From the sequence record PZ296772.1: DNA of 64,000 bases; one strand, written 5' to 3'. This stretch comes from a phage. The position numbers and the translations under genes were made by a program. The notes beneath the pieces are model-generated. The model made no database searches and was not told the origin of the DNA. It saw only the letters and a program-made list of their open reading frames with translations. Shown here piece after piece: positions 6,478 through 51,320 of the stretch. Each line of letters starts with the position of its first letter. The first letter of the stretch is position 1.

Positions 6478-6485
6478 TATAAATA
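6478..6485 (+). promoter_or_regulatory. T4-type late promoter TATAAATA inside intron
   Basis: exact tataaata 30 bp upstream of endonuclease ORF, preceded by ctgcat/atgcag hairpin. Confidence 0.55.
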
Positions 6486-6514
6486 AGATTATCTTATGAA
6501 TACGAGGTGAAACA

Positions 6515-7285: not shown

Positions 7286-7292
7286 ATTTGCG

Positions 7293-8591
7293 ACTCATGC
7301 TGAATATAATGATGAAGTAAATACACTTTTCAGCTCTAATGGTCAAACGCCTTTTGTAACAATTACATTTGGTACGGGAACTGACTGGACTGAACGAATG
7401 ATTCAGAAAGCAATTCTGAAAAATCGTATTAAAGGTCTTGGTCGTGATGGGATAACTCCTATTTTCCCTAAGCTTGTTATGTTCGTTGAAGAAGGTGTTA
7501 ATCTTTATAAAGATGATCCGAACTATGATATTAAGCAGCTTGCTTTAGAGTGTGCAAGCAAAAGGATGTATCCTGATATTATTTCAGCTAAGAACAATAA
7601 AGCTATCACTGGTTCATCTGTTCCTGTTTCTCCAATGGGTTGCCGTAGTTTCTTGAGCGTATGGAAAGATTCGACTGGTAATGAAATTCTTGATGGACGT
7701 AATAATCTTGGTGTTGTAACACTGAATCTTCCTCGCATCGCGTTAGATTCTTATATTGGAACACAGTTCAATGAACAGAAATTTATCGAATTGTTCAATG
7801 AACGAATGGATTTATGTTTTGAAGCTTTGATGTGTAGAATTAGTTCCTTAAAAGGAATTAAAGCTACTGTTGCTCCTATTCTTTACCAAGAAGGTGCATT
7901 CGGGGTTCGTCTTAAACCCGATGACGATATAATTGAGTTATTTAAAAACGGTAGAAGTTCAGTGTCTTTAGGATACATTGGTATTCACGAATTGAATATT
8001 CTTATCGGTCGTGATATTGGACAAGAAATTTTAACTAAAATGAATGCTCATCTTAAACAGTGGACTGAAAGAACTGGGTTTGCTTTTAGTTTGTATTCTA
8101 CTCCTGCTGAAAACCTTTGCTATCGCTTCTGTAAACTTGATACAGAAAAATATGGAAGTGTAAAGGATGTTACTGATAAAGGTTGGTACACTAACAGTTT
8201 CCATGTTTCAGTAGAAGAAAATGTTACTCCGTTTGAAAAGATTTCTCGTGAAGCGCCATATCATTTCATTGCGACAGGTGGTCACATTTCTTATGTTGAA
8301 CTTCCTGATATGAAAAATAACTTAAAAGGTCTTGAGGCTGTATGGGATTATGCCGCACAACATTTAGATTATTTTGGTGTTAATATGCCAGTAGATAAAT
8401 GTTTTACATGTGGAAGTACCCATGAAATGACTCCTACTGAAAACGGATTTGTTTGTTCTATTTGCGGAGAAACTGATCCTAAAAAGATGAATACCATAAG
8501 AAGAACATGTGGTTATTTGGGAAATCCGAACGAACGCGGATTTAATCTCGGTAAAAATAAAGAAATCATGCATAGGGTTAAACACCAATGA
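7293..8591 (+). CDS. nrdD: anaerobic ribonucleotide reductase NrdD, exon 2 (5' boundary approximate)
   Basis: C-terminal CxxC...CxxC zinc site and glycyl-radical motif RRTCGYLG. Confidence 0.85.
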   Translation, partial: THAEYNDEVNTLFSSNGQTPFVTITFGTGTDWTERMIQKAILKNRIKGLGRDGITPIFPKLVMFVEEGVNLYKDDPNYDIKQLALECASKRMYPDIISAKNNKAITGSSVPVSPMGCRSFLSVWKDSTGNEILDGRNNLGVVTLNLPRIALDSYIGTQFNEQKFIELFNERMDLCFEALMCRISSLKGIKATVAPILYQEGAFGVRLKPDDDIIELFKNGRSSVSLGYIGIHELNILIGRDIGQEILTKMNAHLKQWTERTGFAFSLYSTPAENLCYRFCKLDTEKYGSVKDVTDKGWYTNSFHVSVEENVTPFEKISREAPYHFIATGGHISYVELPDMKNNLKGLEAVWDYAAQHLDYFGVNMPVDKCFTCGSTHEMTPTENGFVCSICGETDPKKMNTIRRTCGYLGNPNERGFNLGKNKEIMHRVKHQ

Positions 8592-9058
8592 ATTATGATA
8601 GATTTTATCCCTGTGATTTTGTGAATGGCCCTGGATGCAGGGTCGTTCTTTTCGTCACAGGTTGTTTGCATAAATGCGAAGGGTGTTATAATAAATCAAC
8701 ATGGAATGCTAGAAATGGTATTCCATTCACTGGTGAAACACTGGAACAATTAATTGAATGTTTGAATAATGATTATACAGAAGGATTAACTATAACTGGG
8801 GGAGACCCTCTTTATCCTGATAACAGAGATGTGATTCATTGCATTGTTCAAACAGTAAAAAATCTTTATCCCAGTAAAAGCATTTGGTTGTGGACAGGAT
8901 ATAAGTTTGAAGATATTAAACAACTAGAAATGCTTAAATATGTTGATGTTATTATTGATGGGAAGTATGAGAAAAATCTTCCGACCAAAAAGCTGTGGCG
9001 AGGATCAGATAATCAGCGACTTTGGTCAAATACCGATGGGGTGTGGAAACATGATTAA
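8588..9058 (+). CDS. nrdG: anaerobic RNR activating enzyme NrdG (radical SAM)
   Basis: 156 aa; CLHKCEGC radical-SAM cysteine triad; start overlaps nrdD stop. Confidence 0.9.
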   Translation: MNYDRFYPCDFVNGPGCRVVLFVTGCLHKCEGCYNKSTWNARNGIPFTGETLEQLIECLNNDYTEGLTITGGDPLYPDNRDVIHCIVQTVKNLYPSKSIWLWTGYKFEDIKQLEMLKYVDVIIDGKYEKNLPTKKLWRGSDNQRLWSNTDGVWKHD

Positions 9059-20682: not shown

Positions 20683-23394
20683 ATGAAAGAATTTTACTTA
20701 ACGGTTGAACAGATTGGTGATTCAATTTTTGAACGTTACATCGATTCTAATGGCCGTGAACGTACTCGTGAAGTAGAATATAAACCATCACTGTTTGCTC
20801 ATTGTCCAGAAAGTCAGGCTACGAAATATTTCGATATCTACGGTAAGCCGTGTACTCGTAAGTTGTTCGCTAATATGCGTGATGCCTCCCAATGGATTAA
20901 ACGCATGGAAGATATCGGACTTGAAGCACTTGGCATGGACGATTTCAAATTGGCGTATTTGTCTGACACTTATAACTATGAAATCAAATACGACCATACA
21001 AAAATTCGTGTGGCTAACTTCGACATCGAAGTAACATCTCCGGATGGGTTCCCTGAGCCGTCACAAGCAAAACATCCAATTGATGCTATCACCCATTATG
21101 ACTCAATTGATGACAGGTTTTATGTATTTGACCTTTTGAATTCTCCATACGGTAATGTGGAAGAATGGTCTATCGAAATTGCGGCTAAGCTTCAAGAACA
21201 AGGTGGTGATGAAGTTCCATCCGAAATTATCGATAAAATCATTTATATGCCGTTCGATAACGAAAAAGAATTGTTGATGGAATATCTCAACTTCTGGCAA
21301 CAGAAAACTCCTGTCATTTTGACTGGATGGAACGTTGAGTCATTTGATATTCCATATGTGTATAACCGAATCAAGAATATTTTTGGCGAATCAACTGCGA
21401 AACGTTTATCACCACATCGTAAAACTCGTGTTAAAGTTATCGAAAACATGTATGGTTCTCGTGAAATCATTACATTGTTCGGTATCTCTGTTCTTGATTA
21501 CATTGACCTTTACAAAAAATTCTCTTTTACCAATCAACCGTCATATTCTCTGGATTACATTTCAGAATTTGAATTGAACGTTGGTAAACTGAAATACGAC
21601 GGCCCTATTTCTAAGCTTCGTGAAAGCAATCACCAACGATATATTTCTTATAACATTATCGACGTGTATCGTGTATTGCAAATTGATGCTAAGCGTCAGT
21701 TCATCAACTTGAGCTTGGACATGGGTTATTATGCTAAAATTCAGATTCAATCCGTGTTCAGTCCAATTAAAACTTGGGACGCTATTATTTTTAATAGCCT
21801 TAAAGAACAAAACAAGGTGATTCCACAAGGTCGTTCGCATCCAGTTCAACCTTACCCAGGTGCTTTTGTTAAGGAACCTATTCCAAATCGATACAAATAT
21901 GTTATGAGCTTCGACCTCACATCTCTGTATCCAAGTATTATTCGCCAAGTGAATATTAGTCCGGAAACAATAGCAGGAACGTTTAAAGTAGCTCCATTGC
22001 ATGATTATATTAACGCTGTTGCTGAACGTCCTTCTGATGTGTACAGTTGTTCTCCTAACGGCATGATGTATTATAAAGACCGTGATGGTGTAGTTCCAAC
22101 TGAAATCACTAAGGTCTTTAATCAACGTAAAGAACATAAAGGTTACATGCTTGCAGCTCAACGTAATGGTGAAATAATTAAAGAGGCATTGCATAATCCT
22201 AATTTTTCTGATGACGAACCGTTAGATGTTGATTATCGTTTCGACTTCAGCGATGAGATTAAAGAAAAGATTAAAAAGTTGTCTGCTAAATCTCTTAATG
22301 AAATGTTGTTTAGAGCTCAACGTACTGAAGTTGCAGGTATGACTGCACAAATTAACCGTAAATTGCTTATCAACTCACTTTATGGTGCACTTGGCAACGT
22401 TTGGTTCCGTTATTACGATTTGCGTAATGCTACTGCAATCACAACATTCGGGCAAATGGCTTTACAGTGGATTGAACGTAAAGTCAATGAATATCTGAAT
22501 GAAGTTTGTGGTACAGAAGGCGAAGCTTTCGTTCTATATGGTGATACAGACTCCATTTACGTATCTGCAGATAAAATTATTGATAAGGTTGGTGAATCTA
22601 AATTCCGTGATACCAACCATTGGGTAGACTTCTTAGATAAGTTCGCTCGTGAACGTATGGAACCTGCTATTGATAGAGGTTTCCGTGAAATGTGCGAATA
22701 CATGAATAATAAGCAACATTTGATGTTCATGGACCGAGAAGCTATCGCTGGACCTCCGCTTGGTTCTAAAGGTATTGGCGGATTTTGGACTGGTAAGAAA
22801 CGTTATGCATTAAACGTGTGGGATATGGAAGGCACTCGTTACGCTGAGCCTAAACTCAAAATCATGGGTCTAGAGACTCAGAAATCTTCGACTCCTAAAG
22901 CAGTACAGAAAGCTCTTAAGGAATGTATTCGTCGTATGCTTCAGGAAGGTGAAGAATCATTACAAGAATATTTTAAAGAGTTTGAAAAAGAATTCCGTCA
23001 ATTGAATTATATTAGCATCGCGTCGGTATCTTCTGCGAATAACATCGCTAAATATGATGTTGGTGGATTCCCTGGTCCCAAATGCCCGTTCCATATTCGT
23101 GGAATTCTGACGTATAACCGGGCTATCAAAGGTAATATCGATGCACCACAAGTTGTAGAAGGTGAAAAAGTATATGTTCTGCCTTTACGTGAAGGAAACC
23201 CATTCGGTGATAAATGTATCGCATGGCCTTCTGGTACTGAAATCACAGATTTAATTAAAGACGACGTACTTCATTGGATGGACTACACTGTTCTCCTTGA
23301 GAAGACATTTATTAAACCACTTGAAGGATTCACATCAGCAGCGAAACTCGATTACGAGAAGAAAGCATCTCTGTTCGATATGTTCGATTTTTGA
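20683..23394 (+). CDS. 43: DNA polymerase gp43 (family B)
   Basis: 903 aa; exonuclease FDIE and polymerase YGDTDS motifs; N-terminus MKEFYLTVEQIGDSIFERYIDSNGRERTREVEYKPSLFAHCPE recalled as RB69 gp43. Confidence 0.95.
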   Translation: MKEFYLTVEQIGDSIFERYIDSNGRERTREVEYKPSLFAHCPESQATKYFDIYGKPCTRKLFANMRDASQWIKRMEDIGLEALGMDDFKLAYLSDTYNYEIKYDHTKIRVANFDIEVTSPDGFPEPSQAKHPIDAITHYDSIDDRFYVFDLLNSPYGNVEEWSIEIAAKLQEQGGDEVPSEIIDKIIYMPFDNEKELLMEYLNFWQQKTPVILTGWNVESFDIPYVYNRIKNIFGESTAKRLSPHRKTRVKVIENMYGSREIITLFGISVLDYIDLYKKFSFTNQPSYSLDYISEFELNVGKLKYDGPISKLRESNHQRYISYNIIDVYRVLQIDAKRQFINLSLDMGYYAKIQIQSVFSPIKTWDAIIFNSLKEQNKVIPQGRSHPVQPYPGAFVKEPIPNRYKYVMSFDLTSLYPSIIRQVNISPETIAGTFKVAPLHDYINAVAERPSDVYSCSPNGMMYYKDRDGVVPTEITKVFNQRKEHKGYMLAAQRNGEIIKEALHNPNFSDDEPLDVDYRFDFSDEIKEKIKKLSAKSLNEMLFRAQRTEVAGMTAQINRKLLINSLYGALGNVWFRYYDLRNATAITTFGQMALQWIERKVNEYLNEVCGTEGEAFVLYGDTDSIYVSADKIIDKVGESKFRDTNHWVDFLDKFARERMEPAIDRGFREMCEYMNNKQHLMFMDREAIAGPPLGSKGIGGFWTGKKRYALNVWDMEGTRYAEPKLKIMGLETQKSSTPKAVQKALKECIRRMLQEGEESLQEYFKEFEKEFRQLNYISIASVSSANNIAKYDVGGFPGPKCPFHIRGILTYNRAIKGNIDAPQVVEGEKVYVLPLREGNPFGDKCIAWPSGTEITDLIKDDVLHWMDYTVLLEKTFIKPLEGFTSAAKLDYEKKASLFDMFDF

Positions 23395-23434: not shown

Positions 23435-24070
23435 ATGAAAACTACTCCTATTACTATCGCTATTGACGCAATCATAAAACAAGCTTCTTCTTTGGCCGCT
23501 ATGGCCAAAGTAATTAGTCAAAACCCTGCTCGTTATAATGCTATTCTAGAAACTCTTCGACGCCCGGGACTTAGTAATTATGAAAGCCGAGTAATTATTA
23601 CAGGTGTTGGTAAGAATGCTAATATTGCAACTAAAGCTTCTGAGACATTTGCTTCACTCGGTATCCCGAGTATGTACTTGAACACCGGGCACTATTCTCA
23701 CGGTGATGCAGGATTTATTGCGCCTAATGATGTATTAGTTCACATCAGTCGTTCTGGTAAGACTGAAGAAATGATAGGTGTTGCTAAACATCTTCGTATG
23801 ATTCGTCCTCAGGTTAAACAGATTCTGTTACATTGTAACCCTGACATTCCACAAGAATACGAAGCTCTTTTTGATTATACGTTCTGTACCGGTATCGCGG
23901 TAGAAGTTGACGAGAACTCTTTAGCTCCGACAATGTCAACCACATTGTTGTTAGCGCTTATCGATACGTTCGCTATCAACCTTTCGTCTGAGCGTGGATT
24001 TACCTCTAATGACTTCCTTAAGTTCCACCCTGGTGGTGCACTAGGTGCCATGTTACGAGGCGAACAATGA
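23435..24070 (+). CDS. SIS-domain sugar-phosphate isomerase, KdsD/GutQ-type arabinose-5-phosphate isomerase-like
   Basis: 211 aa; GVGKNANIA phosphosugar-binding loop, HGDAGFI, LAPTMSTT signature, HPGGALG. Confidence 0.75.
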   Translation: MKTTPITIAIDAIIKQASSLAAMAKVISQNPARYNAILETLRRPGLSNYESRVIITGVGKNANIATKASETFASLGIPSMYLNTGHYSHGDAGFIAPNDVLVHISRSGKTEEMIGVAKHLRMIRPQVKQILLHCNPDIPQEYEALFDYTFCTGIAVEVDENSLAPTMSTTLLLALIDTFAINLSSERGFTSNDFLKFHPGGALGAMLRGEQ

Positions 24071-24210
24071 AAGCAATAACAATAGGACTTTTACTATTGA
24101 TGCTTGTCATGACTATCTACTGGAGCTTAACGGCTCCAGTAATGATTCCAACACTTGTAATTGGATGGATTATGATTGGTCTACAGGCAAAGTATGAATG
24201 CTTTAACTAG
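24067..24210 (+). CDS. small hydrophobic membrane peptide (below ORF-track cutoff)
   Basis: 47 aa MKAITIGLLLLMLVMTIYWSL...; ATGA overlap with upstream stop. Confidence 0.35.
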   Translation: MKAITIGLLLLMLVMTIYWSLTAPVMIPTLVIGWIMIGLQAKYECFN

Positions 24211-24251
24211 AATAGTGTACAATACATCTACTTACCAATGAGGACCACAAC

Positions 24252-25937
24252 ATGAAAAAAGCTGTTATTCTTGGTGCTGGACTGGCAACTCGTTTGTATC
24301 CAATAACGCATCATATTCCAAAAGTTCTTGTGAACTATAAACAAGACACTATTCTGAGCAATTTGTATACAATTTATTCTGACCTTGGCGCAGATGAAAT
24401 TATTGTAGTAGTTCATTCAAAATTTGCTGAAACTGTTCGAGCTTATTGTGAGCAAGAAGGGTTCAATGTGACTATTCGTACAGTTGATGAAGCGTATGGT
24501 TCTGCTTATGCTCTTGCTAAATTACACAAAGATTTAGACGGCCATAATGTAATTGTTAACTGGTGTGATATTATTCCTGATTTTGGTTCATGGTCTTGGA
24601 ATGTTAACGCAATCTATGTTAAGGGTGACGAATGTCGGTATAATTTCGACGGTGAAAATATCACTAACGTAGGTTCAACAGGTGGTAATGTTGTAGGAAT
24701 TTATCAGTTCAAAGACTGGGAATTCTATATGGGTTCTACTGATGAGGAAATTCATGAATACTGCAAAGGACGCGATTTCGTAGAATTCCTTTACAGCGGC
24801 GCATTCAATAAATCAGAGCTTATGAATCTAATTGATTTAGGTGATATGCCTAAACTTGAAAAAGCTCATGAAGTTCGTGAACTTAATCGTAGTTTTAATG
24901 CAGTTGAAATTGGTGAAGAAACTGTAACTAAATTCGCATTAACCGAACAGGGTCGAGCTCTTCAGAAAGATGAGATTTCATGGTATCTTAAAGTGAAATC
25001 AGATTCAGTTCCTCAGTTAGTTTCTGTAAATGAAAATAACTTTGAAATGGAACGTATTAAAGGTAAGCCGGCATTTGAATATATTAAATCCAAATCAAGT
25101 CTTGCTCGTCCACAAATTGTTGATGCAATTTTAGATGCACTAAAATTCAGCACAGACACGTATTTTGTAAGTCCTGAAACTGTTCGTCGTGATTTCACTA
25201 AAGAATTCTATACGAAAGTTATTGATCGTTGTGAAAGCATTCAGCCATTGATTGATTCATTTGGTAAAATCACACACGTGAACTACACTAAGATTGGACG
25301 TCTGAAGCCAATGCTGAAACAAGCTTTAGAACACCTTATTCGTTATCATAACCGTTCTCAGGGACAGTACTCTGTTATTCATGGTGACCCGAACTTCAGT
25401 AATACTATGATTACTGATAACGGCGAAGTCAAGTTTATCGACCCTCGTGGATATTTTGGCGAAACCAAGATTTACGGGCCAAAATTGTATGATGAAGCTA
25501 AAGTGCTTTATGCTGTTTCAGGTTATGATGAATTCAATGCTAATCCGACCTGGGGACAGTTTACTATTGATGAAACAACTTGTAATGTGACTATTAACAT
25601 CAATCCATTAATTTACAAATATGGAAAGATGAGTTCGTTTAACGAGTATCATCATTTGGCTGTAGCAATTATCTGGATTGCATTAGGTGGTTATTTCAAG
25701 AATAATCCACTTAAAGCGGTAGCCGCATATTATAAAGGTATGGAACTTCTGACTAAGCAATTACGTAACATGGGCCGTGTACTTCAAGATGGCTCTATTA
25801 GTTATGACGTAGCAGAACCTGTAACGGCTACTCTGATTACAAAAAATCCTGGTAAATGGGTACTAACTGATAAAGAAACTGGTGTTTCCTATCGTCCAAT
25901 CGGTGGCGATATCACTCATCAATGGGAACGAATCTAA
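24252..25937 (+). CDS. bifunctional sugar-1-phosphate nucleotidyltransferase / sugar kinase
   Basis: N-terminal LGAGLATRLYPIT resembles RmlA/GlmU GxGTRL pyrophosphorylase loop; C-terminal HGDPNFSNTMI...IDPRG resembles APH/choline-kinase-type catalytic loop. Confidence 0.7.
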   Translation: MKKAVILGAGLATRLYPITHHIPKVLVNYKQDTILSNLYTIYSDLGADEIIVVVHSKFAETVRAYCEQEGFNVTIRTVDEAYGSAYALAKLHKDLDGHNVIVNWCDIIPDFGSWSWNVNAIYVKGDECRYNFDGENITNVGSTGGNVVGIYQFKDWEFYMGSTDEEIHEYCKGRDFVEFLYSGAFNKSELMNLIDLGDMPKLEKAHEVRELNRSFNAVEIGEETVTKFALTEQGRALQKDEISWYLKVKSDSVPQLVSVNENNFEMERIKGKPAFEYIKSKSSLARPQIVDAILDALKFSTDTYFVSPETVRRDFTKEFYTKVIDRCESIQPLIDSFGKITHVNYTKIGRLKPMLKQALEHLIRYHNRSQGQYSVIHGDPNFSNTMITDNGEVKFIDPRGYFGETKIYGPKLYDEAKVLYAVSGYDEFNANPTWGQFTIDETTCNVTININPLIYKYGKMSSFNEYHHLAVAIIWIALGGYFKNNPLKAVAAYYKGMELLTKQLRNMGRVLQDGSISYDVAEPVTATLITKNPGKWVLTDKETGVSYRPIGGDITHQWERI

Positions 25938-26323
25938 TGCATCGTGTAGAAAACATGCTTAATCTTTGTTTTGATGTCGACGATTGTATAACAGAGTGGA
26001 ATAACAATCGTGATTACGTGAACTTCAAGCCAGACGTCGAAATGGTGACTGCCATTAATGCCCTGTATGATGCAGGGCATACCATAACGCTTTACACTGC
26101 TCGTGGTATGAAGTCAGTAGGTCCTGGACGTATAGCAATTGACATTCTACCGAGTCTGATTCAGAACTTGGAAAACATTGGTTTGAAGTACCATAATTTG
26201 CTAACACATAAACCAGTATATGATTGGATTATCGACGACAAAGCTATGCGTCCTGACGAATTCAAAGCTCTTATGAATAAAGGCGAATTCGAAACATTTA
26301 AATCATATAAACCGAACCTATAA
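25937..26323 (+). CDS. HAD-superfamily phosphatase (KdsC-like size)
   Basis: FDVDDCIT motif I, TLYTARG motif II, IIDDKA motif IV; about 128 aa. Confidence 0.65.
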   Translation: MHRVENMLNLCFDVDDCITEWNNNRDYVNFKPDVEMVTAINALYDAGHTITLYTARGMKSVGPGRIAIDILPSLIQNLENIGLKYHNLLTHKPVYDWIIDDKAMRPDEFKALMNKGEFETFKSYKPNL

Positions 26324-26371
26324 TAATTTAAGTAAGACCTGCAAAAAAACCATCGCATCAATTAACGTGAG

Positions 26372-27541
26372 ATGCAAAAAATGAATACTTTTAAAATCGG
26401 AACGAATTTTGATTTAGCTCTTCTTGATAAAATCGTAGAGCTCAATAAAACTTATCCTAATAGCTTGATAAACGAAGTGTACGGCTCTACAAGAGAAATG
26501 GCTTTTGTAGCAGCCAGACCTGATTTTAGGCTTCCTGACGTTGACAAAAAGATGTTAGAAGATTACGTTAAACGTTGTAACGAATTAGGTATTTGCTTTA
26601 ACTATACACTCAACACGATAAATCCTGGTTCAAAAAGAGAACTAGTTGAGTGGAAGAAGAAAGCTATTCAGGATTATGTTCAGTATCTTTGGTCAATAGG
26701 CGTATGGCGTATTACTATCGCTAACCCTGTTGTTATGGAAATTGTTCGTGAAGTAAATAAAGACATTGAGATTGAAGTTTCAACAATTCTACATGTTGAT
26801 GCTGTAACTCAAATCAAATACTTGCATGACCAATATAATATCAAAAAGGTCTGCTGTGGAATTCATAAGAACCGTTCAGTTTCTTTCCTGAAGCGTGCAG
26901 CAGAGTTTTGCAATAAGAACAATATAATATTTGAAGTTCTTGTAAATGAGTTCTGTTCTAATGCTGGTAAAGGGTATACAACACATTGTAGCTATCGTGA
27001 CTCTTGCTATATTTTCCATAGTACTGATGTTACAGCTGATGATGCTAAATCCTTAAATGGATATCCAATGCAGCACTGTATTAAAGCTCGTGATACAGAC
27101 CCATTTAACTGGTTGAGAACTCGTTTTGTTCGTCCTCAAGATTTGAAACTTTATAATGATATTGGTATCACTCAATTCAAAGTTTCAGGACGTACAGGTA
27201 GCACAGACTACATTTTGAAAGTTCTTGAAGCATACGCTTCTGAAAAGTTTGAAGGTAATTTGTTAGAACTGTGGAAGCCTTTAGAGACTATTTTCACTCT
27301 TGAAAACGAAACCGAGTTTTCACATACAGTAAATATTGAAACCTCTTTGTTAGATGGCTTTTTAGAAAAAAGGTGGTTCAGACATCCAGATTTCGATTGT
27401 GCTAATGAAATCTGTGGGACGACGTGTACATATTGTGAAAGATATTATAAACGTCAGTTATCTAAAAACGGGTTAGCAGAAAACTCTATATCTATTATTG
27501 ATATAACTAACTCTGATGACGCTTTGAGGTACCCGGAATGA
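26372..27541 (+). CDS. Cys-rich protein of unknown function in the modification island
   Basis: 389 aa; cysteine-dense segment NEFCSNAGKGYTTHCSYRDSCYIF loosely reminiscent of peptidase U32-type cysteine motifs; terminal C-x-C-x5-C-T-Y-C. Confidence 0.5.
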   Translation: MQKMNTFKIGTNFDLALLDKIVELNKTYPNSLINEVYGSTREMAFVAARPDFRLPDVDKKMLEDYVKRCNELGICFNYTLNTINPGSKRELVEWKKKAIQDYVQYLWSIGVWRITIANPVVMEIVREVNKDIEIEVSTILHVDAVTQIKYLHDQYNIKKVCCGIHKNRSVSFLKRAAEFCNKNNIIFEVLVNEFCSNAGKGYTTHCSYRDSCYIFHSTDVTADDAKSLNGYPMQHCIKARDTDPFNWLRTRFVRPQDLKLYNDIGITQFKVSGRTGSTDYILKVLEAYASEKFEGNLLELWKPLETIFTLENETEFSHTVNIETSLLDGFLEKRWFRHPDFDCANEICGTTCTYCERYYKRQLSKNGLAENSISIIDITNSDDALRYPE

Positions 27542-27777
27542 TTTCTAGAAAAACTTTTAATCACCAACTTAATGAAGAGATTTTGACTACGAAACTGAAC
27601 ACTAACGAACAAATTCTTAAAAAGGCCCTTATGGGCCTGTTTGAAACCAAAGCGGCTAAAGTGATTAAAGAACCTGTTCAATTGGAATACTACGCTGATG
27701 CATTTCTTCACAGTGTTCTTGGAAGTATCGATGCTGAAGCTTTACGGTATACCAACATTGCCAAGAAATTCAAATAA
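27538..27777 (+). CDS. hypothetical protein
   Basis: 79-aa ORF coupled to upstream gene. Confidence 0.45.
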   Translation: MISRKTFNHQLNEEILTTKLNTNEQILKKALMGLFETKAAKVIKEPVQLEYYADAFLHSVLGSIDAEALRYTNIAKKFK

Positions 27778-27819
27778 GCTTTACGAATCGAGTATATAAT
27801 AAATTGTATTGAGGTAAAC

Positions 27820-28536
27820 ATGGGAAAACATAACACAATGAAATATATCAAAGCCGCAGATTTTCAAGCCGCATTTAAAGCAGTCAATCGTGAAATTTTA
27901 GAAAACCCAGAATTCGTAACTGATTCTCGTATTGGACGTTGTAATGAAATTGGGTCTATGACAGTAGTTGTTGACACTCCATCATCATTCAAAATGACCG
28001 ACCCACGTATTAACCGCATCTCTTATGAATATGCTGAAGACTTCTGGAAGTTTATGATTTCTGGTGGTACTGACGCAGAAGAAGCGTTTAAGGCATACCC
28101 TAATGTCGCTAAATTTATTTCTAAACCCAAATCAGACGCTTTGCCGGCGAACTTCAACACTTTCTATGGTCCTCGCATTGCGGCCCAATTACCAGCTCTT
28201 CTAAAAGAACTTAAAGAGAAGCCTAACTCTCGAAGAGTTGTGTTCCAAATTCTAGAAAGTTCTGATCAGGCTTTGCTTGATTCGGACGAAACGCTTGAAT
28301 ATCCATGTACTGACTCAGTGACTTATTATATTCGTGATGGTAAGCTTTATACCCACTGTCATATGCGTTCTCAGAACTGTGCTGTTGTTATGCAGTTGGA
28401 TTTTTATCTCCAAGGAAAATTACTTCATTATATCGCTAACGAATGCGGTGTAGAAGTAGGTGATTATACTCATACCATGGTAAGTGCCCATGTGTTTGAA
28501 CGTGATTTTGATTATGTTAAAGGATTCCTTGACTAA
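27820..28536 (+). CDS. 42: thymidylate-synthase-fold dCMP hydroxymethylase homologue (diverged gp42)
   Basis: 238 aa; PNSRRVV...YPCTDSVTYYIRDGKLYTHCHMRSQ aligns by eye with T4 gp42 PDSRR...MCTNTVQYLIRDKK...NMRSND. Confidence 0.65.
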   Translation: MGKHNTMKYIKAADFQAAFKAVNREILENPEFVTDSRIGRCNEIGSMTVVVDTPSSFKMTDPRINRISYEYAEDFWKFMISGGTDAEEAFKAYPNVAKFISKPKSDALPANFNTFYGPRIAAQLPALLKELKEKPNSRRVVFQILESSDQALLDSDETLEYPCTDSVTYYIRDGKLYTHCHMRSQNCAVVMQLDFYLQGKLLHYIANECGVEVGDYTHTMVSAHVFERDFDYVKGFLD

Positions 28537-29435
28537 TGGCTATTTTCCGCGTACCTATCTTGAGTATGCGGTCTTATGAAACTGGACAGTATGCTATCCT
28601 TAAGGATGGCAACTTCCAACTTCATTTGCACCGTGCTAATCCAGGTGATGTGATTACATATCCACGTAATGCATCTGATATTAAAGAATGTGAACGTCTT
28701 TTCCCGGAATTTAAGTTTGTTCCATTATGGTATAAAGATAACGCGTATAACACTCGTAAATATTTCTGGTCTGAAAATGAATTTGTGGTTGATTCATTAA
28801 TTGCTTATTATGATTGTGATTTTCTAATCACAGATATCACTGGATATGATGGCGCTTTTGACGTAGAATTCAATTTCAATATCACTGCAGACCCTAATAA
28901 ACCACGTTTTTATATTGATGAATTCTTAAAAACCGACATGTTGTCTGTTAATCGTTCAATCCAAACAACTGTGTTGAATAAACGTCAAAAGGAAGTGCTG
29001 GTTAACGCTGGTGCCGATGGTAATAAGATTATCGTAACGCAGAAAGTTATACGTCCTTCCGTCATGCAGCGTCTTGTAGGTGATTTGGCTCCTATTCATC
29101 TAGATGGTATTTTTCATCCATTTCGAATTAGTGACCCATGCTATCGTTTTGAACAAGTTGTTGAATGCGCAATTCAATTAGGTCAACCGCTTTATATAAC
29201 TGATCCAAATAATAGTTTCGACAGAAATAAGTATCCTGAAGAAGCGCTGATTCGAATTTTTAATCCAACTAAAACTGAGTACTATCAAATTCTTAAAGGA
29301 CGTCCGAAGATTCAATATTTCGAAAATCCTGAAGAAGTATTCCATCCAGGTCTTGGTGAGTTCATCTACTTTAATGCTTTAATTTCTTCACCGTATAATA
29401 TACCTAAATACGAAGATGTCGTAATCGAGGAATAA
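28536..29435 (+). CDS. hypothetical protein occupying the T4 beta-glucosyltransferase position
   Basis: 299-aa ORF coupled to the gp42 homologue; no motif recognised. Confidence 0.5.
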   Translation: MAIFRVPILSMRSYETGQYAILKDGNFQLHLHRANPGDVITYPRNASDIKECERLFPEFKFVPLWYKDNAYNTRKYFWSENEFVVDSLIAYYDCDFLITDITGYDGAFDVEFNFNITADPNKPRFYIDEFLKTDMLSVNRSIQTTVLNKRQKEVLVNAGADGNKIIVTQKVIRPSVMQRLVGDLAPIHLDGIFHPFRISDPCYRFEQVVECAIQLGQPLYITDPNNSFDRNKYPEEALIRIFNPTKTEYYQILKGRPKIQYFENPEEVFHPGLGEFIYFNALISSPYNIPKYEDVVIEE

Positions 29436-29436
29436 A

Positions 29437-29985
29437 ATGGCTAAAATTATTTTAGTAGATGGCCCGGATAATGCCGGTAAAACAACTTTCATTAATGACG
29501 TAATGGAAATTAGTGAAAGATATGTAAAGATTGATTTCCCTAAACGAACAATTGATGGACGTTTCGATGTTAAGTCTCGAAATGAAGTTGGCTGTTTCGA
29601 AACGATGTTGAATTATTTAGACCCTACTAAGATTTATCTGTTAGACCGTGGATATATTAGTAACTGGGTTTATGGACGTATTCGACAAGATGCGGACTCA
29701 GTTCTTGACGTTTATGAACAGGATTATGTTCGTCTTTGCCAAAACCATGATGTGTTCACAATTATTTTAACACGTAACGAAATGACTGAAAGTTTTGAAG
29801 ACGACCTTATTACTTTGTCTTCATTAGGTTTTAATACAGTCATTTCATATTTTGAAGAGTTTGCAATTCATAACAAAATCCAAACGTATCAATTACTTAA
29901 TCATGATGGTGCTAACAAAGTTATAGGATTTAATGCAAGCGAACGTAATAATTTGATTACAGAAATCATCAAATGGGCTCGTTAA
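29437..29985 (+). CDS. P-loop nucleotide kinase-like protein
   Basis: Walker A VDGPDNAGKTT and LLDRGY (DRY-type) motif as in dNMP/thymidylate kinases. Confidence 0.6.
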   Translation: MAKIILVDGPDNAGKTTFINDVMEISERYVKIDFPKRTIDGRFDVKSRNEVGCFETMLNYLDPTKIYLLDRGYISNWVYGRIRQDADSVLDVYEQDYVRLCQNHDVFTIILTRNEMTESFEDDLITLSSLGFNTVISYFEEFAIHNKIQTYQLLNHDGANKVIGFNASERNNLITEIIKWAR

Positions 29986-30083: not shown

Positions 30084-31256
30084 ATGTCTGATTTAAAATC
30101 TCGTCTGATTAAAGCTTCTACTTCTAAAATGACTGCAGACTTGACTAAGTCTAAGCTGTTTAATAATCGTGATGAAGTCCCTACTCGTATTCCGATGTTG
30201 AATATTGCACTAGGTGGTGCTCTGAATGCAGGATTGCAATCAGGCTTGACTATTTTTGCTGCTCCTTCTAAACACTTTAAAACGTTGTTTGGGCTGACTA
30301 TGGTTGCAGCGTATATGAAGAAATATAAAGATGCAATCTGTTTGTTTTATGACTCGGAATTCGGTGCTTCAGAATCTTATTTTCGTTCAATGGGTGTCGA
30401 TTTAGACCGTGTAGTTCATACACCAATTCAGTCTGTCGAACAACTTAAAGTCGATATGACTAATCAGCTTGACGCTATTGAACGCGGTGATAAAGTTATT
30501 ATCTTTATCGATTCAATCGGTAATACTGCATCTAAGAAAGAAACCGAAGATGCGTTGAACGAGAAAGTTGTAGGTGATATGTCTCGTGCTAAGGCACTTA
30601 AATCTCTTTTCCGTATTGTGACCCCGTATCTGACTATTAAAGATATTCCGTGTGTTGCAATTAACCATACCGCAATGGAAATTGGCGGATTGTATCCTAA
30701 AGAGATTATGGGCGGTGGTACAGGTATTCTTTATTCTGCCAACACAGTATTTTTTATCTCTAAACGTCAGGTTAAAGAAGGTACAGAATTGACCGGTTAT
30801 GACTTCACGTTGAAAGCAGAAAAATCTCGCACCGTTAAAGAAAAATCTACTTTCCCAATCACGGTTAATTTTGATGGTGGTATCGACCCATTCAGTGGCT
30901 TGCTAGAAATGGCAACTGAAATCGGTTTTGTGGTTAAGCCTAAAGCCGGGTGGTATGCTCGTGAATTCCTTGACGAAGAAACAGGTGAAATGATTCGTGA
31001 AGAAAAATCATGGCGTGCTAAAGCTACTGATTGTGTAGAATTCTGGGGACCTTTGTTTAAACACAAACCTTTCCGAGATGCAATTGAAACCAAATATAAA
31101 CTAGGTGCTATCTCTTCTATTAAAGAAGTTGATGACGCTGTTAACGACCTTATTAATTGCAAAGCAACAACTAAGGTTCCAGTTAAAACTTCTGATGCTC
31201 CATCTGCAGCAGATATAGAAAACGACCTTGACGAAATGGAAGATTTCGATGAATAA
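30084..31256 (+). CDS. uvsX: RecA-like recombinase UvsX
   Basis: MSDLKSRLIKASTSK...GWYAREFLDEETGEMIREEKSWRAK matches T4 UvsX from memory. Confidence 0.93.
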   Translation: MSDLKSRLIKASTSKMTADLTKSKLFNNRDEVPTRIPMLNIALGGALNAGLQSGLTIFAAPSKHFKTLFGLTMVAAYMKKYKDAICLFYDSEFGASESYFRSMGVDLDRVVHTPIQSVEQLKVDMTNQLDAIERGDKVIIFIDSIGNTASKKETEDALNEKVVGDMSRAKALKSLFRIVTPYLTIKDIPCVAINHTAMEIGGLYPKEIMGGGTGILYSANTVFFISKRQVKEGTELTGYDFTLKAEKSRTVKEKSTFPITVNFDGGIDPFSGLLEMATEIGFVVKPKAGWYAREFLDEETGEMIREEKSWRAKATDCVEFWGPLFKHKPFRDAIETKYKLGAISSIKEVDDAVNDLINCKATTKVPVKTSDAPSAADIENDLDEMEDFDE

Positions 31257-34772: not shown

Positions 34773-35021
34773 ATGGAATTATTCGTGGCTAGTTCAGTAG
34801 CAGTTTTAATCGCAGGTATTGGTTCAATCATCATTTACATGTTGCCTTGGGTAATCGCACTTATTCGTGGCACAAAAAGCACAACAGCAATCTTCTTTGT
34901 ATCTTTACTCTTTAACTGGACGATGGTTGGTTGGATTGGAACTTTAATTTGGTCTATCGTTGCCGAAAAGAAATCTGCTCAGCAGCCTCAACAAGTAATT
35001 ATTATTCGCGAAAAAGAATAA
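34773..35021 (+). CDS. small inner-membrane protein (two predicted TM helices)
   Basis: 82 aa, hydrophobic; T4 Imm-like size and topology. Confidence 0.5.
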   Translation: MELFVASSVAVLIAGIGSIIIYMLPWVIALIRGTKSTTAIFFVSLLFNWTMVGWIGTLIWSIVAEKKSAQQPQQVIIIREKE

Positions 35022-37972: not shown

Positions 37973-38060
37973 AATATCTCCTTAGTTACCTATTATTTAT
38001 TACGCTTTATAAAATTAATGTTAGAATTAACTCTCTTATACTGAATTGAAAGGAAAAATT

Positions 38061-38582
38061 ATGGCACACTTTAACGAATGTTCACAACTTATTTCTGGTG
38101 TTGATAAAGCAGAAGAAGCTTATTTTAATGCTCTGATTCACGAAGATAAAGACCCACTGCAGGTAATGCTTGATATGCAGAAATCTTTACAGGTTCGTTT
38201 GGCAAATGATAAGCCTGAACATAACAAACATCCTGATGAATTGGCTACTGCCGGTGATGTTGTTGATTGGCTGCGTAATCAGAAAGATTATATTGATGAT
38301 GAATTCCGTGAACTGCTGACTTCACTTGGCGGTATGAGCAATGGTGAAAAAGCCGCTAGCTCTGTATGGAAGCCGTGGAAAGCACAACATGCTGAATATC
38401 GTAATCGTCGTATCGATGAACTGTCTCCTGAAGACCAGCTTGAAATTAAATTCGAGATGATTGACATCCTCCACTTTGTTCTGAATATGTTCCAAGGTCT
38501 GGGTCTTTCTGCTGAAGAAATCTTTAAACTTTACTACTTGAAAAACCAACACAACTTTGAACGCCAGGATAACGGTTACTAA
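38061..38582 (+). CDS. 56: dCTPase-dUTPase gp56
   Basis: MAHFNEC...DPLQVMLDMQ...LTSLGGMSNGEKA matches T4 gp56 from memory. Confidence 0.9.
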   Translation: MAHFNECSQLISGVDKAEEAYFNALIHEDKDPLQVMLDMQKSLQVRLANDKPEHNKHPDELATAGDVVDWLRNQKDYIDDEFRELLTSLGGMSNGEKAASSVWKPWKAQHAEYRNRRIDELSPEDQLEIKFEMIDILHFVLNMFQGLGLSAEEIFKLYYLKNQHNFERQDNGY

Positions 38583-50219: not shown

Positions 50220-51320
50220 ATGAAAGTTATGTTTATCCCATCTCGTGCAGTCCCATTTAATCCTGACCGTGTACAAGGTGGACTTGAAGCAGTACATTTA
50301 AATGTGTTGAAATATCTTGTGTCCATCGGTGCTGATATTGATTATATCGGCTTTGATAATGACACGTTTGGTGACTGGAAAGTTACACACCATCCTGTTG
50401 GTCATCTGACTAAATTCAGTCTAGGTATGAGTTATACTATGGCTCGTAAGATTGTTGAACTAGCCGGCATCCATGAATACGATTTTGTTGTTACTATGGA
50501 ACCGACTAAACTAACCGTCCAAGCAATTAAAGACGCAGGTCTCTCTAAAGTTCATAAGAATTTTATGGCTACGCCATTTGAACCGGTGTCTCGTGGTATT
50601 GTTCAAATTTGGGATCAGACTATCCAGATTCACAAGAACGGTGGGAAGAGCTATGCTCCTACTAAAGCCTTCCGTGAATTTGAACGTAAATATTGTCATA
50701 TGACTTCAGCTCTTACTGACAAAATTGATTATGACTACTGGCGTGAAAATCCATTATTTGAACCTGATGACTACCCGGTTATTTGTTTGAATGAAAAACC
50801 TGAAGTTCTTCCGGCAACTGATTTGATTATTAGTGCTCAACGTTATGACACTAAGATGCGTCGCACTGATGTTGCTCTTGAAGCAATTAAAGCACTAGGC
50901 GAAAATGGTATTGGTTATTGTCCAAGCAAATGGGCACCACCAGCTAAATATCCTGTTATTATTGATGCTCCACACAGTGAAATCATGGAACGTCTTAAAA
51001 CAGCTAAAGCACTTATTAATACATGTCCTGACACAGGTACGGTAGAGAATAGTTCTATTGAAGCCATCTCTAAAGGTGTCCCTGTAATCCAGTTAGTTTT
51101 TAAGGATTATCCTCATGCGACATTCGAATACGACCCAGATACTGTGCGTGTAGAAATTGATTCCTCTACTCCTAAGAAAGAAGTAGTTGCGCTTTACACA
51201 AAAGCTGTATTAGAATTCACTGACACATACAAAGCTCGAGTTAAACGTGCTGAAGCAGTATGGAAGAAGTATAATCGAGATGCAGTTGTTGCGATGTGGG
51301 ATAAAATCTTCACAGCGTAA
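50220..51320 (+). CDS. GT-B fold glycosyltransferase (GT4-like), candidate DNA hydroxymethylcytosine pentosyltransferase
   Basis: 366 aa; N-terminal MKVMFIPSRAVPFNPDRVQGGLEAVHLNVLKYL and C-terminal GTVENSSIEAISKGVPVI resemble GT1/GT4 donor-binding motifs. Confidence 0.6.
   Translation: MKVMFIPSRAVPFNPDRVQGGLEAVHLNVLKYLVSIGADIDYIGFDNDTFGDWKVTHHPVGHLTKFSLGMSYTMARKIVELAGIHEYDFVVTMEPTKLTVQAIKDAGLSKVHKNFMATPFEPVSRGIVQIWDQTIQIHKNGGKSYAPTKAFREFERKYCHMTSALTDKIDYDYWRENPLFEPDDYPVICLNEKPEVLPATDLIISAQRYDTKMRRTDVALEAIKALGENGIGYCPSKWAPPAKYPVIIDAPHSEIMERLKTAKALINTCPDTGTVENSSIEAISKGVPVIQLVFKDYPHATFEYDPDTVRVEIDSSTPKKEVVALYTKAVLEFTDTYKARVKRAEAVWKKYNRDAVVAMWDKIFTA

What the first reader, a model, noticed from the sequence alone, without database searches (positions are those of the whole stretch)
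23435..29985. Seven-gene nucleotide-pentose biosynthesis and hmC module replacing the T4 imm/42/beta-gt block
Between DNA polymerase (43) and uvsX, where T4 carries imm, 42 and beta-glucosyltransferase, sits a tightly packed co-directional operon. Its genes are a KdsD/GutQ-type SIS isomerase with the LAPTMSTT signature (ribulose-5-P to arabinose-5-P), a fusion of an RmlA-like nucleotidyltransferase domain with an APH/choline-kinase-like sugar kinase domain, a small HAD phosphatase, a Cys-rich 389-aa protein, a diverged dCMP hydroxymethylase, a 299-aa unknown protein and a P-loop nucleotide kinase. The chemistry is coherent for a route Ru5P to Ara5P to free arabinose to Ara-1-P to NDP-arabinose, made alongside hm-dCMP. 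No alpha-gt or beta-gt homologue was recognised anywhere in the window. This points to pentosylation (arabinosylation-type) of hydroxymethylcytosine instead of glucosylation. Arabinosyl-hmC has been reported for RB69, but to my knowledge this enzyme set has not been biochemically assigned step by step.
Basis: partly seen in the sequence, partly recalled or inferred. Interest (0 to 1): 0.9.

Follow-up and report, generated by a model that had tools for sequence, protein, structure and literature searches.

The report
Phage arabinosyl-hydroxycytosine DNA modification cluster
This is the already published gene cluster that RB69-like phages use to replace cytosine with arabinose-decorated 5-hydroxycytosine (not hydroxymethylcytosine). 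One member, an iron-sulfur 'U32' protein, has no function in the papers I could read and may be an oxygen-independent back-up hydroxylase.

Summary
The window is a Mosigvirus (RB69-like) phage. Region 23435-29985 is 99.7% identical to phage PTK, and its proteins are 96-99.7% identical to those of phage HY126. The ORFs are real, but there are nine, not seven.

- The thymidylate-synthase homologue is not a dCMP hydroxymethylase. It is 98.7% identical to PDB 9IQC and carries the D169N signature of the O2/flavin-dependent 5-hydroxy-dCMP synthases.
- The base is 5-O-arabinosyl-5-hydroxycytosine.
- The '299-aa unknown' is a GT-B glycosyltransferase. A second one sits at 50220-51320.
- As relayed from HY126 work, sugar activation runs through arabinose-1,5-bisphosphate, not free arabinose.

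All of this was published in 2018-2026, so the finding is already known.

The residual lead is the Cys-rich protein, a Peptidase_U32 family member still labelled 'sugar or heterocycle reductase'. Three of the four UbiU Fe-S cysteines align with invariant cysteines. A chorismate mutase sits next to it in 13 of 15 T4-like relatives. In uncultured phages it forms kinase-GT-U32 modules with no thymidylate-synthase homologue nearby. I propose it is a prephenate-dependent, O2-independent cytosine-5 hydroxylase. This is untested.

The parts
23435..24070 (+). Single-domain SIS arabinose-5-phosphate isomerase (RB69 gp55 type), Ru5P to Ara5P; no CBS pair
   Evidence: Pfam SIS 9.6e-10. NCBIfam KpsF/GutQ 8.9e-32 and KdsD 3.9e-30, both below the full-length cut-offs because the protein is 211 aa. 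Best PDB hits are 3etn, 5uqi and 2xhz. 98.6% identical to HY126.
24067..24210 (+). 47-aa hydrophobic small ORF (RB69 gp54 type), function unknown
   Evidence: Translation is a two-segment hydrophobic peptide. Its start overlaps the SIS stop by 4 nt. Conserved at 47-66% in other genera. Annotated in Bas47.
24252..25937 (+). Bifunctional sugar-1-P nucleotidyltransferase (N-terminus) plus APH/choline-kinase-like sugar kinase (C-terminus); AfhE / RB69 gp52:53 type
   Evidence: Pfam NTP_transferase 8.5e-10. Kinase families score only weakly, E 0.002-0.03. PDB 1jyk 2e-5. 96.4% identical to HY126. Activities of HY126 AfhE are relayed in PMC13326640.
25922..26323 (+). Small HAD-type phosphatase (AfhF / RB69 gp51 type), Ara-1,5-P2 to Ara-1-P
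   Evidence: NCBIfam TIGR01689 capsule biosynthesis phosphatase 2e-13; no Pfam hit. 98.4% identical to HY126. Function relayed.
26372..27541 (+). Peptidase_U32 family Fe-S-type protein (RB69 gp50 type); no function given in the papers I could read; proposed here as a prephenate-dependent pyrimidine C5 hydroxylase
   Evidence: Pfam PF01136 7.4e-11. hhalign against E. coli UbiU/UbiV/RlhA/TrhP gives 96% probability. AF2 pLDDT 90.9 with top PDB hit 5d88. Ten invariant cysteines. Context evidence.
27538..27777 (+). 79-aa small ORF (RB69 gp49 type), start overlaps the U32 stop; function unknown; not a chorismate mutase
   Evidence: Homologous to the small ORFs that follow U32 in Yersinia TG1 (43%, 8e-13) and Serratia 92A1 (31%, 4e-12). 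No similarity to the phage CM_2 proteins. Frameshifted in the HY126 record.
27820..28536 (+). Thymidylate-synthase-fold 5-hydroxy-dCMP synthase (RB69 gp48 type), O2- and flavin-dependent
   Evidence: 98.7% identical to PDB 9iqc/9ir2/9iqu. Cys146 retained, with L143E, N177D and D169N. 25% identical to T4 gp42. Experiments on RB69 gp48 are in PMC13326640.
28536..29435 (+). GT-B fold glycosyltransferase, putative first (base-proximal) arabinosyltransferase (RB69 gp46:47 type)
   Evidence: No Pfam, NCBIfam or PDB sequence hit. AF2 pLDDT 94.7. Foldseek hits MshA 3c4q, UDP-GlcNAc 2-epimerases and 9ir0. Activity has not been shown in the papers I could read.
29437..29985 (+). P-loop thymidylate-kinase-like nucleotide kinase (RB69 gp45 type); substrate unknown
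   Evidence: Weak AAA_14, TK and dTMP-kinase hits. Structural hits to thymidylate kinases are reported. Fused to GT1 homologues in uncultured phages.
50220..51320 (+). Second GT-B arabinosyltransferase (RB69 gp3 type), outside the reported interval, between topoisomerase gene 39 and rIIA
   Evidence: E 6.7e-250 to PDB 9iqz/9ir0, 'phage HY126 glycosyltransferase with UDP'. 99.9% DNA identity to the Bas47 'putative hmC-arabinosyltransferase'.

Best explanation
The block is the Mosigvirus version of the published arabinosyl-5-hydroxycytosine pathway (RB69 gp45-gp55, HY126 Afh genes).

Nucleotide branch:
- The TS-fold enzyme hydroxylates dCMP at C5, using O2 and a flavin, to give 5-hydroxy-dCMP.
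- The phage dNMP kinase, host enzymes and the phage dCTPase (38046-38582) then let 5-hydroxy-dCTP replace dCTP in replication.

Sugar branch:
- The SIS isomerase diverts ribulose-5-P to arabinose-5-P.
- The kinase domain of the 561-aa fusion makes arabinose-1,5-bisphosphate.
- The HAD phosphatase removes the 5-phosphate.
- The nucleotidyltransferase domain makes UDP-arabinofuranose.

Transfer: the GT-B enzyme at 28536-29435 puts the first arabinose on the C5 hydroxyl, and the GT-B enzyme at 50220-51320 adds the second.

How firm each step is:
- Shown by others on near-identical proteins: the hydroxylase, and the AfhE/AfhF activities (the latter known to me only as relayed).
- Inferred: the isomerase step, which glycosyltransferase acts first and on what substrate, and the roles of the P-loop kinase, the U32 protein and the two small ORFs.
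For: - Identity of the locus: 99.7% to phage PTK and 99.3% to Bas47. The proteins are 96.4-99.7% identical to HY126.
- TS homologue: 98.7% identical to 9IQC, with the D169N, N177D and L143E changes. RB69 gp48 makes 5hodC in vivo, takes up 18O from 18O2 and binds a flavin.
- DNA chemistry: mono- and di-arabosyl-5-hydroxycytosine in RB69. NicPhage carries 5-ara-dC and 5-ara-ara-dC and is 97.6% identical over this region.
- Isomerase family assignment; nucleotidyltransferase; phosphatase; AfhE/AfhF activities relayed.
- GT-B fold of the 299-aa protein. The second glycosyltransferase is near-identical to 9IQZ/9IR0.
Against: - I could not read the two primary papers, He 2026 and Mahler 2025. The bisphosphate route and the enzyme names come second-hand from PMC13326640. 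Table 1 of that paper still labels the steps as going through free arabinose.
- No glycosyltransferase activity on 5hoC-DNA was seen for the DLP3 enzymes tested singly. The substrate of the first transfer is therefore open.
- JS98-type coliphages carry the cluster without the SIS and U32 genes, so not every gene here is required.
- The C-terminal kinase domain reaches only sub-threshold Pfam scores.
Confidence: 0.9

Rival explanations
1. A diverged gp42-type dCMP hydroxymethylase makes hm-dCMP, and arabinose is attached to hmC after a route Ru5P to Ara5P to free arabinose to Ara-1-P to NDP-arabinose.
For: - Thomas et al. 2018 reported ara-hmC for RB69.
- The protein has the TS fold with the dCMP-selecting N177D and L143E changes shared with gp42.
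- Table 1 of PMC13326640 labels the phosphatase and kinase steps via free arabinose.
Against: - D169N signature, and 98.7% identity to the HY126 enzyme whose crystal structure holds a flavin.
- 18O2 labelling and a 5hodC standard.
- NMR/MS show an ether link at C5.
- The 2018 assignment is now described as tentative.
- HY126 AfhE phosphorylates Ara5P directly.
Confidence: 0.03
2. The U32 protein is an accessory redox enzyme. It would be a 'sugar or heterocycle reductase' or a supplier of reduced flavin to the TS-like hydroxylase, or an epimerase-like sugar enzyme, and not a hydroxylase itself.
For: - It is labelled 'sugar or heterocycle reductase' in PMC13326640 Table 1.
- The Mosigvirus cluster is described as holding a predicted 'epimerase' in PMC13390438, without saying which gene is meant.
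- The TS-like enzyme needs reduced flavin.
- U32 is absent from Acinetobacter, Rhizobium and JS98-type clusters that still have the hydroxylase. This shows it is dispensable.
Against: - In 36 of 37 uncultured-phage loci the U32 homologue has no TS-family gene within 10 kb. The one exception is ThyA-like, with D169 and N177 kept.
- It often lies directly after a kinase and a GT1 homologue.
- A chorismate mutase gene or domain accompanies it in three different architectures.
- All characterised U32 members are tied to O2-independent, prephenate-dependent hydroxylation.
Confidence: 0.3
3. The sugar genes make a heptose or Kdo-type sugar rather than arabinose. In this reading the SIS protein is GmhA-like, and the HAD protein is a heptose-bisphosphate or Kdo-8-P phosphatase.
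For: - Several GenBank records label the HAD gene 'phosphoheptose isomerase'.
- Some uncultured-phage loci add a DAHP/Kdo8P-synthase-family gene and a KdsC-like phosphatase.
Against: - The SIS protein scores as KpsF/GutQ/KdsD and hits API structures. No GmhA model is listed.
- Arabinose was identified chemically in RB69 and NicPhage DNA.
- The viral DAHP-family proteins score far better as DAH7P synthase than as Kdo8P synthase, 237 against 63 bits. None is present in this window.
Confidence: 0.02

Closest known systems
RB69 gp45-gp55 plus gp3, HY126 Afh genes (arabinosyl-5-hydroxycytosine pathway of Mosigvirus and other Straboviridae; Thomas 2018, Mahler 2025, He 2026, Lee 2026)
   Same: Same genes in the same order between gene 43 and uvsX. 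The proteins are 96-99.7% identical to HY126. The TS homologue and the second glycosyltransferase are near-identical to the deposited HY126 structures.
   Different: Nothing substantive. Here the 561-aa and 299-aa genes are intact, whereas the old RB69 record splits them through sequencing errors. The 79-aa ORF is intact, whereas the HY126 record has it frameshifted.
T4 gp42 / alpha-gt / beta-gt glucosyl-hydroxymethylcytosine system
   Same: Same genomic slot and the same logic. A TS-fold enzyme changes dCMP before replication, a dCTPase removes dCTP, and GT-B enzymes add sugar.
   Different: - Hydroxyl instead of hydroxymethyl, and flavin/O2 instead of methylene-THF/water.
- Only 25% identity to gp42, with D169N.
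- The sugar donor is made by the phage, where T4 uses host UDP-glucose.
E. coli RlhA (ho5C2501 in 23S rRNA), TrhP (ho5U34 in tRNA) and UbiU/UbiV: U32-family Fe-S proteins of O2-independent, prephenate-dependent hydroxylation
   Same: - Pfam Peptidase_U32 above threshold, and hhalign 96%.
- Invariant phage C206, C212 and C236 align with UbiU Fe-S ligands C169, C176 and C232.
- RlhA makes the same base change, cytosine C5-OH.
- Chorismate mutase is linked to U32 in related phages.
   Different: - No significant pairwise similarity.
- The segment holding UbiU C193 is absent.
- The phage protein has an extra invariant C-terminal CX4CX3CX2C cluster.
- The substrate would be a deoxynucleotide or DNA, not RNA or a quinone.
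- No activity has been shown.
KdsD/GutQ/KpsF arabinose-5-phosphate isomerases
   Same: SIS domain with best hits to API structures and models.
   Different: 211 aa with only the SIS domain. The CBS pair of KdsD/GutQ is missing, as in the single-domain Bacteroides enzyme 3etn.

Membership tests
[quoted passage not shown] | TS fold with the catalytic Cys (E. coli ThyA C146) | tested here: met
   Pfam Thymidylat_synt 2.4e-15. C146 is invariant in the alignment.
[quoted passage not shown] | D169N signature together with N177D (dCMP preference) and L143E | tested here: met
   The window has RSQN where ThyA has RSCD and T4 gp42 has RSND. It has QLDF where ThyA has PFNI, and LEYPC where ThyA has ALAPC. 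The signature is stated in PMC13326640.
[quoted passage not shown] | Makes 5-hydroxy-dCMP with oxygen from O2 and a flavin cofactor | not testable with these tools
   Shown for RB69 gp48, and relayed for the HY126 enzyme. The window protein is 98.7% identical to 9IQC.
T4 gp42-type dCMP hydroxymethylase | Asp retained at ThyA position 169, and close similarity to gp42 | tested here: not met
   Asn at position 169. 25% identity to gp42. gp42 structures are not among the 60 best PDB matches shown.
KdsD/GutQ/KpsF arabinose-5-phosphate isomerase | SIS domain of the API subfamily rather than GmhA or another SIS family | tested here: met
   TIGR00393 8.9e-32, KdsD 3.9e-30, GutQ 2.6e-22; no GmhA model listed. 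PDB hits 3etn, 5uqi, 2xhz.
KdsD/GutQ/KpsF arabinose-5-phosphate isomerase | C-terminal tandem CBS domains | tested here: not met
   211 aa. Matches cover only profile positions 47-202 of 328. Scores fall below the full-length cut-offs. This resembles the single-domain enzyme 3etn.
AfhE-type bifunctional Ara5P 1-kinase / UDP-arabinose pyrophosphorylase | N-terminal sugar-1-P nucleotidyltransferase domain | tested here: met
   PF00483 8.5e-10 and PF12804 7.1e-7; 1jyk 2e-5.
AfhE-type bifunctional Ara5P 1-kinase / UDP-arabinose pyrophosphorylase | C-terminal protein-kinase-like (APH/choline kinase) sugar kinase domain | tested here: inconclusive
   Only sub-threshold hits: Fructosamin_kin 0.0034, EcKL 0.007, APH 0.034. 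Structural hits 3ham and 6hwl are reported by others. 96.4% identical to the HY126 protein.
GT-B glycosyltransferase (DNA arabinosyltransferase 1) | Two Rossmann-like domains of the GT-B fold | tested here: met
   AF2 pLDDT 94.7, pTM 0.89. Foldseek probability 1.00 to MshA 3c4q (TMq 0.60-0.62), GT4 enzymes and 9ir0.
GT-B glycosyltransferase (DNA arabinosyltransferase 1) | Transfers arabinose from UDP-Araf to 5-hydroxycytosine | not testable with these tools
   Not shown in the papers I could read. The DLP3 orthologue alone was inactive on 5hoC-DNA.
Peptidase_U32 Fe-S hydroxylase family (RlhA/TrhP/UbiU/UbiV) | U32 domain | tested here: met
   PF01136 42.2 bits against a cut-off of 22.4. hhalign 96.2%, E 2e-9 over 209 columns. 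Top PDB fold hit is 5d88.
Peptidase_U32 Fe-S hydroxylase family (RlhA/TrhP/UbiU/UbiV) | Four conserved Cys that bind a 4Fe-4S cluster (UbiU C169, C176, C193, C232) | tested here: inconclusive
   Three align with invariant phage C206, C212 and C236. The C193 segment is missing, and invariant C195 could substitute. Metal binding was not tested.
Peptidase_U32 Fe-S hydroxylase family (RlhA/TrhP/UbiU/UbiV) | Dependence on prephenate | tested here: inconclusive
   The evidence is genomic only. A CM_2 chorismate mutase lies between U32 and TS in 13 of 15 T4-like loci and in 54 phage records. DAH7PS-CM fusions lie next to U32 in uncultured phages. No CM gene is present in this window.

The most novel reading that the evidence does not exclude
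The U32 protein (26372-27541) is a prephenate-dependent, O2-independent pyrimidine C5 hydroxylase. It would give these gut phages an anaerobic route to 5-hydroxycytosine alongside the O2-requiring TS-like enzyme. E. coli pairs its own enzymes the same way (TrhO with TrhP, UbiI/H/F with UbiU/V).

In many uncultured DnaE-type phages the kinase-GT1-U32 module has no TS homologue nearby. There, U32 would be the only hydroxylase.

A linked reading concerns the glycosyltransferase. GT1-kinase fusion ORFs suggest that the first sugar is added to the mononucleotide, and that the P-loop kinase then phosphorylates the glycosylated dNMP.
Probability: 0.4. Interest if true: 0.75.

Novelty: already known. 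Interest (0 to 1): 0.3.

Why it matters
The finding as written matters little.

What could matter is the leftover gene. If the U32 protein is an oxygen-independent cytosine hydroxylase:
- It would be the first U32 enzyme acting on DNA precursors.
- It would explain how phages of gut bacteria keep their DNA fully hypermodified without oxygen. This phage also carries the anaerobic reductase NrdD/NrdG.
- It would offer a compact system for finally reconstituting prephenate-dependent hydroxylation in vitro, which is still missing for RlhA, TrhP and UbiU/V.
- It would flag a wide set of uncultured phages as carriers of glycosylated hydroxy-pyrimidines.

Tried and rejected
- **79-aa ORF as chorismate mutase.** I tested whether 27538-27777 is a diverged chorismate mutase like the gene in that slot in Erwinia phage Virsaitis27. 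Rejected: no CM_2 hit and no similarity. It belongs to a separate small-ORF family that precedes CM in Yersinia and Serratia phages.
- **PDB sequence searches.** These found nothing for the 299-aa protein or the U32 protein. A U32 profile gave only a spurious hit.
- **Fold search against afdb50.** The library was not available.
- **Host oxygen lifestyle.** U32 is absent from all 57 Acinetobacter and 20 Rhizobium phage records that carry the TS homologue. It is also absent from about 40 Escherichia records such as JS98. The correlation is suggestive, not clean.
- **MAFFT alignment of U32 with the E. coli paralogues.** Too weak on its own, so I replaced it with hhalign.
- **Consensus promoter and terminator scan.** It gave no more sites than shuffles.
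- **Primary papers.** He 2026 and Mahler 2025 could not be read. Full-text searches linking U32, prephenate or chorismate mutase to this pathway found nothing.
- **The single TS-family gene near a non-T4 U32 (L035).** It is ThyA-like, with D169 and N177 kept, and is not a 5hodCMP synthase.

Full report
**What is there.** The interval holds nine co-directional ORFs on the + strand between DNA polymerase (20683-23394) and uvsX (30084-31256).

| Coordinates | Size | What it is |
|---|---|---|
| 23435-24070 | 211 aa | SIS protein |
| 24067-24210 | 47 aa | small ORF |
| 24252-25937 | 561 aa | nucleotidyltransferase-kinase fusion |
| 25922-26323 | 133 aa | HAD-type phosphatase |
| 26372-27541 | 389 aa | U32 protein |
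| 27538-27777 | 79 aa | small ORF |
| 27820-28536 | 238 aa | TS-fold protein |
| 28536-29435 | 299 aa | GT-B protein |
| 29437-29985 | 182 aa | P-loop protein |

Four junctions overlap by 1-16 nt, one leaves a 1-nt gap, and the remaining three gaps are 41-48 nt. G+C content is flat across the region. T4 has imm.1, imm, 42, beta-gt and segA in the same slot.

**Whose genome it is.** The 6.5-kb interval is 99.7% identical to Escherichia phage PTK and 99.3% to Bas47 AlbertHofmann, a Mosigvirus. One hundred and fifty-two phage records cover at least 80% of it. Protein by protein it is 96.4-99.7% identical to phage HY126. Bas47 already annotates these genes as UDP-arabinose biosynthesis enzymes.

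**What the literature already says.** Thomas et al. 2018 found arabinose in RB69 DNA. They proposed ara-hmC, ORF003c as the transferase, and ORF055c plus ORF53_52c as UDP-arabinose enzymes.

Lee et al. 2026 (PMC13326640) revised the chemistry. RB69 DNA carries mono- and di-arabinosylated 5-hydroxycytosine, with the sugar ether-linked at C5. The TS homologue gp48 makes 5-hydroxy-dCMP in vivo, takes its oxygen from 18O2 and binds a flavin. They cite He et al. 2026 for a flavin-bound crystal structure of the HY126 enzyme and for two activities. AfhE is both an Ara5P 1-kinase and a UDP-arabinose pyrophosphorylase, and AfhF is a phosphatase acting on Ara-1,5-bisphosphate. A further Mosigvirus, NicPhage, is 97.6% identical here and was shown by HPLC/MS to carry 5-ara-dC and 5-ara-ara-dC. 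I could not open He 2026 or Mahler 2025.

**My own checks of each gene.**
- *SIS protein.* It scores as KpsF/GutQ (8.9e-32) and KdsD (3.9e-30). Its best solved relatives are arabinose-5-P isomerases 3etn, 5uqi and 2xhz. No GmhA model appears. It is a bare SIS domain without the CBS pair.
- *561-aa protein.* It has a clear N-terminal nucleotidyltransferase domain and only sub-threshold kinase-family hits at the C-terminus.
- *133-aa protein.* It matches the EcbF/BcbF capsule phosphatase subfamily.
- *TS-fold protein.* It is 98.7% identical to PDB 9IQC/9IR2/9IQU and 25% identical to T4 gp42. It keeps Cys146 and has L143E, N177D and D169N. Lee et al. give D169N as the predictor of 5hodCMP synthases.
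- *299-aa protein.* It has no sequence-family hit, but it folds with pLDDT 94.7 into a GT-B fold that matches MshA, GT4 enzymes and the HY126 glycosyltransferase 9IR0.
- *Second GT-B enzyme.* It lies at 50220-51320 between gene 39 and rIIA and matches 9IQZ/9IR0 at E 6.7e-250.
- *imm and dCTPase.* Both lie further downstream in the window.

- The base is 5-hydroxycytosine, not hydroxymethylcytosine.
- The pathway intermediate, on the relayed HY126 data, is the bisphosphate, not free arabinose.
- Glycosyltransferases are present in the window.
- The enzyme set has now been biochemically assigned.

The finding is already known.

**The leftover: the U32 protein.**

*What is known about the family.* The 389-aa protein is a Peptidase_U32 family member. 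Lee et al. list it only as 'sugar or heterocycle reductase'. The characterised members of the family are RlhA (5-hydroxycytidine 2501 in 23S rRNA), TrhP (5-hydroxyuridine 34 in tRNA) and UbiU/UbiV. All are Fe-S proteins tied to O2-independent hydroxylation that needs prephenate, which is the oxygen donor for UbiU/V.

*Sequence and fold.* A profile comparison of 39 phage-type U32 sequences with the four E. coli paralogues gives 96% probability. Invariant phage C206, C212 and C236 line up with UbiU Fe-S ligands C169, C176 and C232. The fourth ligand's segment is absent, but invariant C195 lies nearby. An extra invariant CX4CX3CX2C cluster sits at 343-355. The model (pLDDT 90.9) has the U32 protein 5d88 as its best match.

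*Context in T4-like relatives.* In 13 of 15 T4-like loci outside this species, and in 54 phage records, a Pfam-significant type II chorismate mutase lies between U32 and the TS gene. It stays downstream of U32 when the cluster order differs, as in Thanatos and Klebsiella BM7. This window lacks that gene. Its 79-aa ORF belongs to a different small family.

*Context in uncultured phages.* I examined 37 U32 loci from uncultured, mostly DnaE-type phages, on contigs up to 466 kb, with 37-55% identity to the window protein. Genes found within 10 kb of U32 were:

| Neighbour | Loci out of 37 |
|---|---|
| P-loop kinase homologue | 28 |
| GT1 homologue | 16 |
| NTase-kinase | 16 |
| SIS protein | 10 |
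| Chorismate mutase gene or domain | 10 |
| DAH7P-synthase-like gene | 7 |
| TS-family gene | 1 |

The DAH7P-synthase-like gene is fused to chorismate mutase in L050. The single TS-family gene is ThyA-like. Six loci have the bare order kinase-GT1-U32. Some of the 37 loci are near-duplicates and some are cut by contig ends.

*Other circumstantial points.* Among cultured phages, U32 occurs only in ara-5hoC Straboviridae of Enterobacterales and Shewanella. It is absent from all Acinetobacter and Rhizobium phages that carry the TS homologue, but also from JS98-type coliphages. The window also encodes the anaerobic ribonucleotide reductase NrdD/NrdG.

*Inference.* I infer that U32 is a prephenate-dependent, O2-independent C5 hydroxylase that backs up, or in other phages replaces, the O2-dependent TS-like enzyme. 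This rests on inference from family precedent and gene context. No activity has been shown, and the unread papers may address it.

**A second lead.** Stop-to-stop ORFs of 562-606 aa in loci L042, L051/L065 and L057 join a GT1 domain to a P-loop kinase domain. Lee et al. state that they cannot tell whether the first arabinose is added to the mononucleotide or to DNA. They also report that single DLP3 glycosyltransferases were inactive on 5hoC-DNA. Together these point to glycosylation of 5hodCMP followed by a dedicated kinase. This is speculative.

**Scores.** The finding as given is already known and partly mis-assigned, so overall interest is low (0.3). The most novel reading not excluded is the U32 hydroxylase. 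I put it at about 0.4 probability and 0.75 interest if true.

Noticed in passing
window 5729-8591: nrdD (anaerobic ribonucleotide reductase) is interrupted. Exon-like ORFs at 5729-6274 and 7260-8591 flank a group I intron core (Rfam RF00028, 73 bits, 6235-6466) and a GIY-YIG/NUMOD1 homing endonuclease ORF (6515-7285). Bas47 has an uninterrupted nrdD. The intron was missed by the whole-window Rfam scan and found only with permissive filters.
   Followed up: partly
window 8588-9058: nrdG (radical-SAM activase of NrdD) directly follows nrdD. The phage is therefore equipped for anaerobic dNTP synthesis, which bears on the O2 requirement of its TS-like hydroxylase.
   Followed up: partly
window 50220-51320: A second GT-B arabinosyltransferase (RB69 gp3 type) lies between topoisomerase gene 39 and rIIA. 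It is near-identical to PDB 9IQZ/9IR0, has no Pfam hit, and lies outside the reported interval.
   Followed up: yes
window 38046-38582 and 34773-35021: A dCTPase (gp56 type) and imm are both present downstream. imm has been displaced, not lost, relative to T4.
   Followed up: partly
window 24067-24210: A 47-aa strongly hydrophobic ORF sits between the isomerase and the NTase-kinase gene. It is conserved at 47-66% in other genera. Its function is unknown, and it may have nothing to do with the pathway.
   Followed up: partly
L070 (HY126) 5661-5783 vs window 27538-27777: The gp49-type small ORF is cut to 40 aa in the HY126 record by two single-base insertions. Either it is dispensable or that record has sequencing errors.
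   Followed up: no
L007 6158-6502; L008 6486-6731; L009 6507-6764: Type II chorismate mutase genes lie immediately downstream of U32 in T4-like phages of Erwinia/Serratia, Klebsiella and Shewanella. In Yersinia, Proteus, Providencia and Serratia 92A1 phages a small ORF sits between the two genes. The Erwinia 114-aa version carries an N-terminus resembling the small gp49-type ORF, as if the two genes had fused.
   Followed up: partly
L050 8332-9387; L004 9145-9891: Uncultured large phages carry a DAH7P-synthase-like gene next to U32. In L050 it is fused to a chorismate mutase domain and followed by a KdsC-like phosphatase.
   Followed up: partly
L042 2591-4408; L051 and L065 5237-7054; L057 5318-7003: Single ORFs join a GT1-type glycosyltransferase domain to a thymidylate-kinase-like P-loop domain.
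   Followed up: partly
window 27778-27800 and 26297-26324: GCTTTA, then 11 nt, then TATAAT lies in the 42-nt gap before the TS gene and resembles a T4 MotA-type middle promoter (consensus recalled from memory). TTTAAA-16-TATAAT lies before the U32 gene. The scan as a whole found no more sites than shuffles.
   Followed up: no
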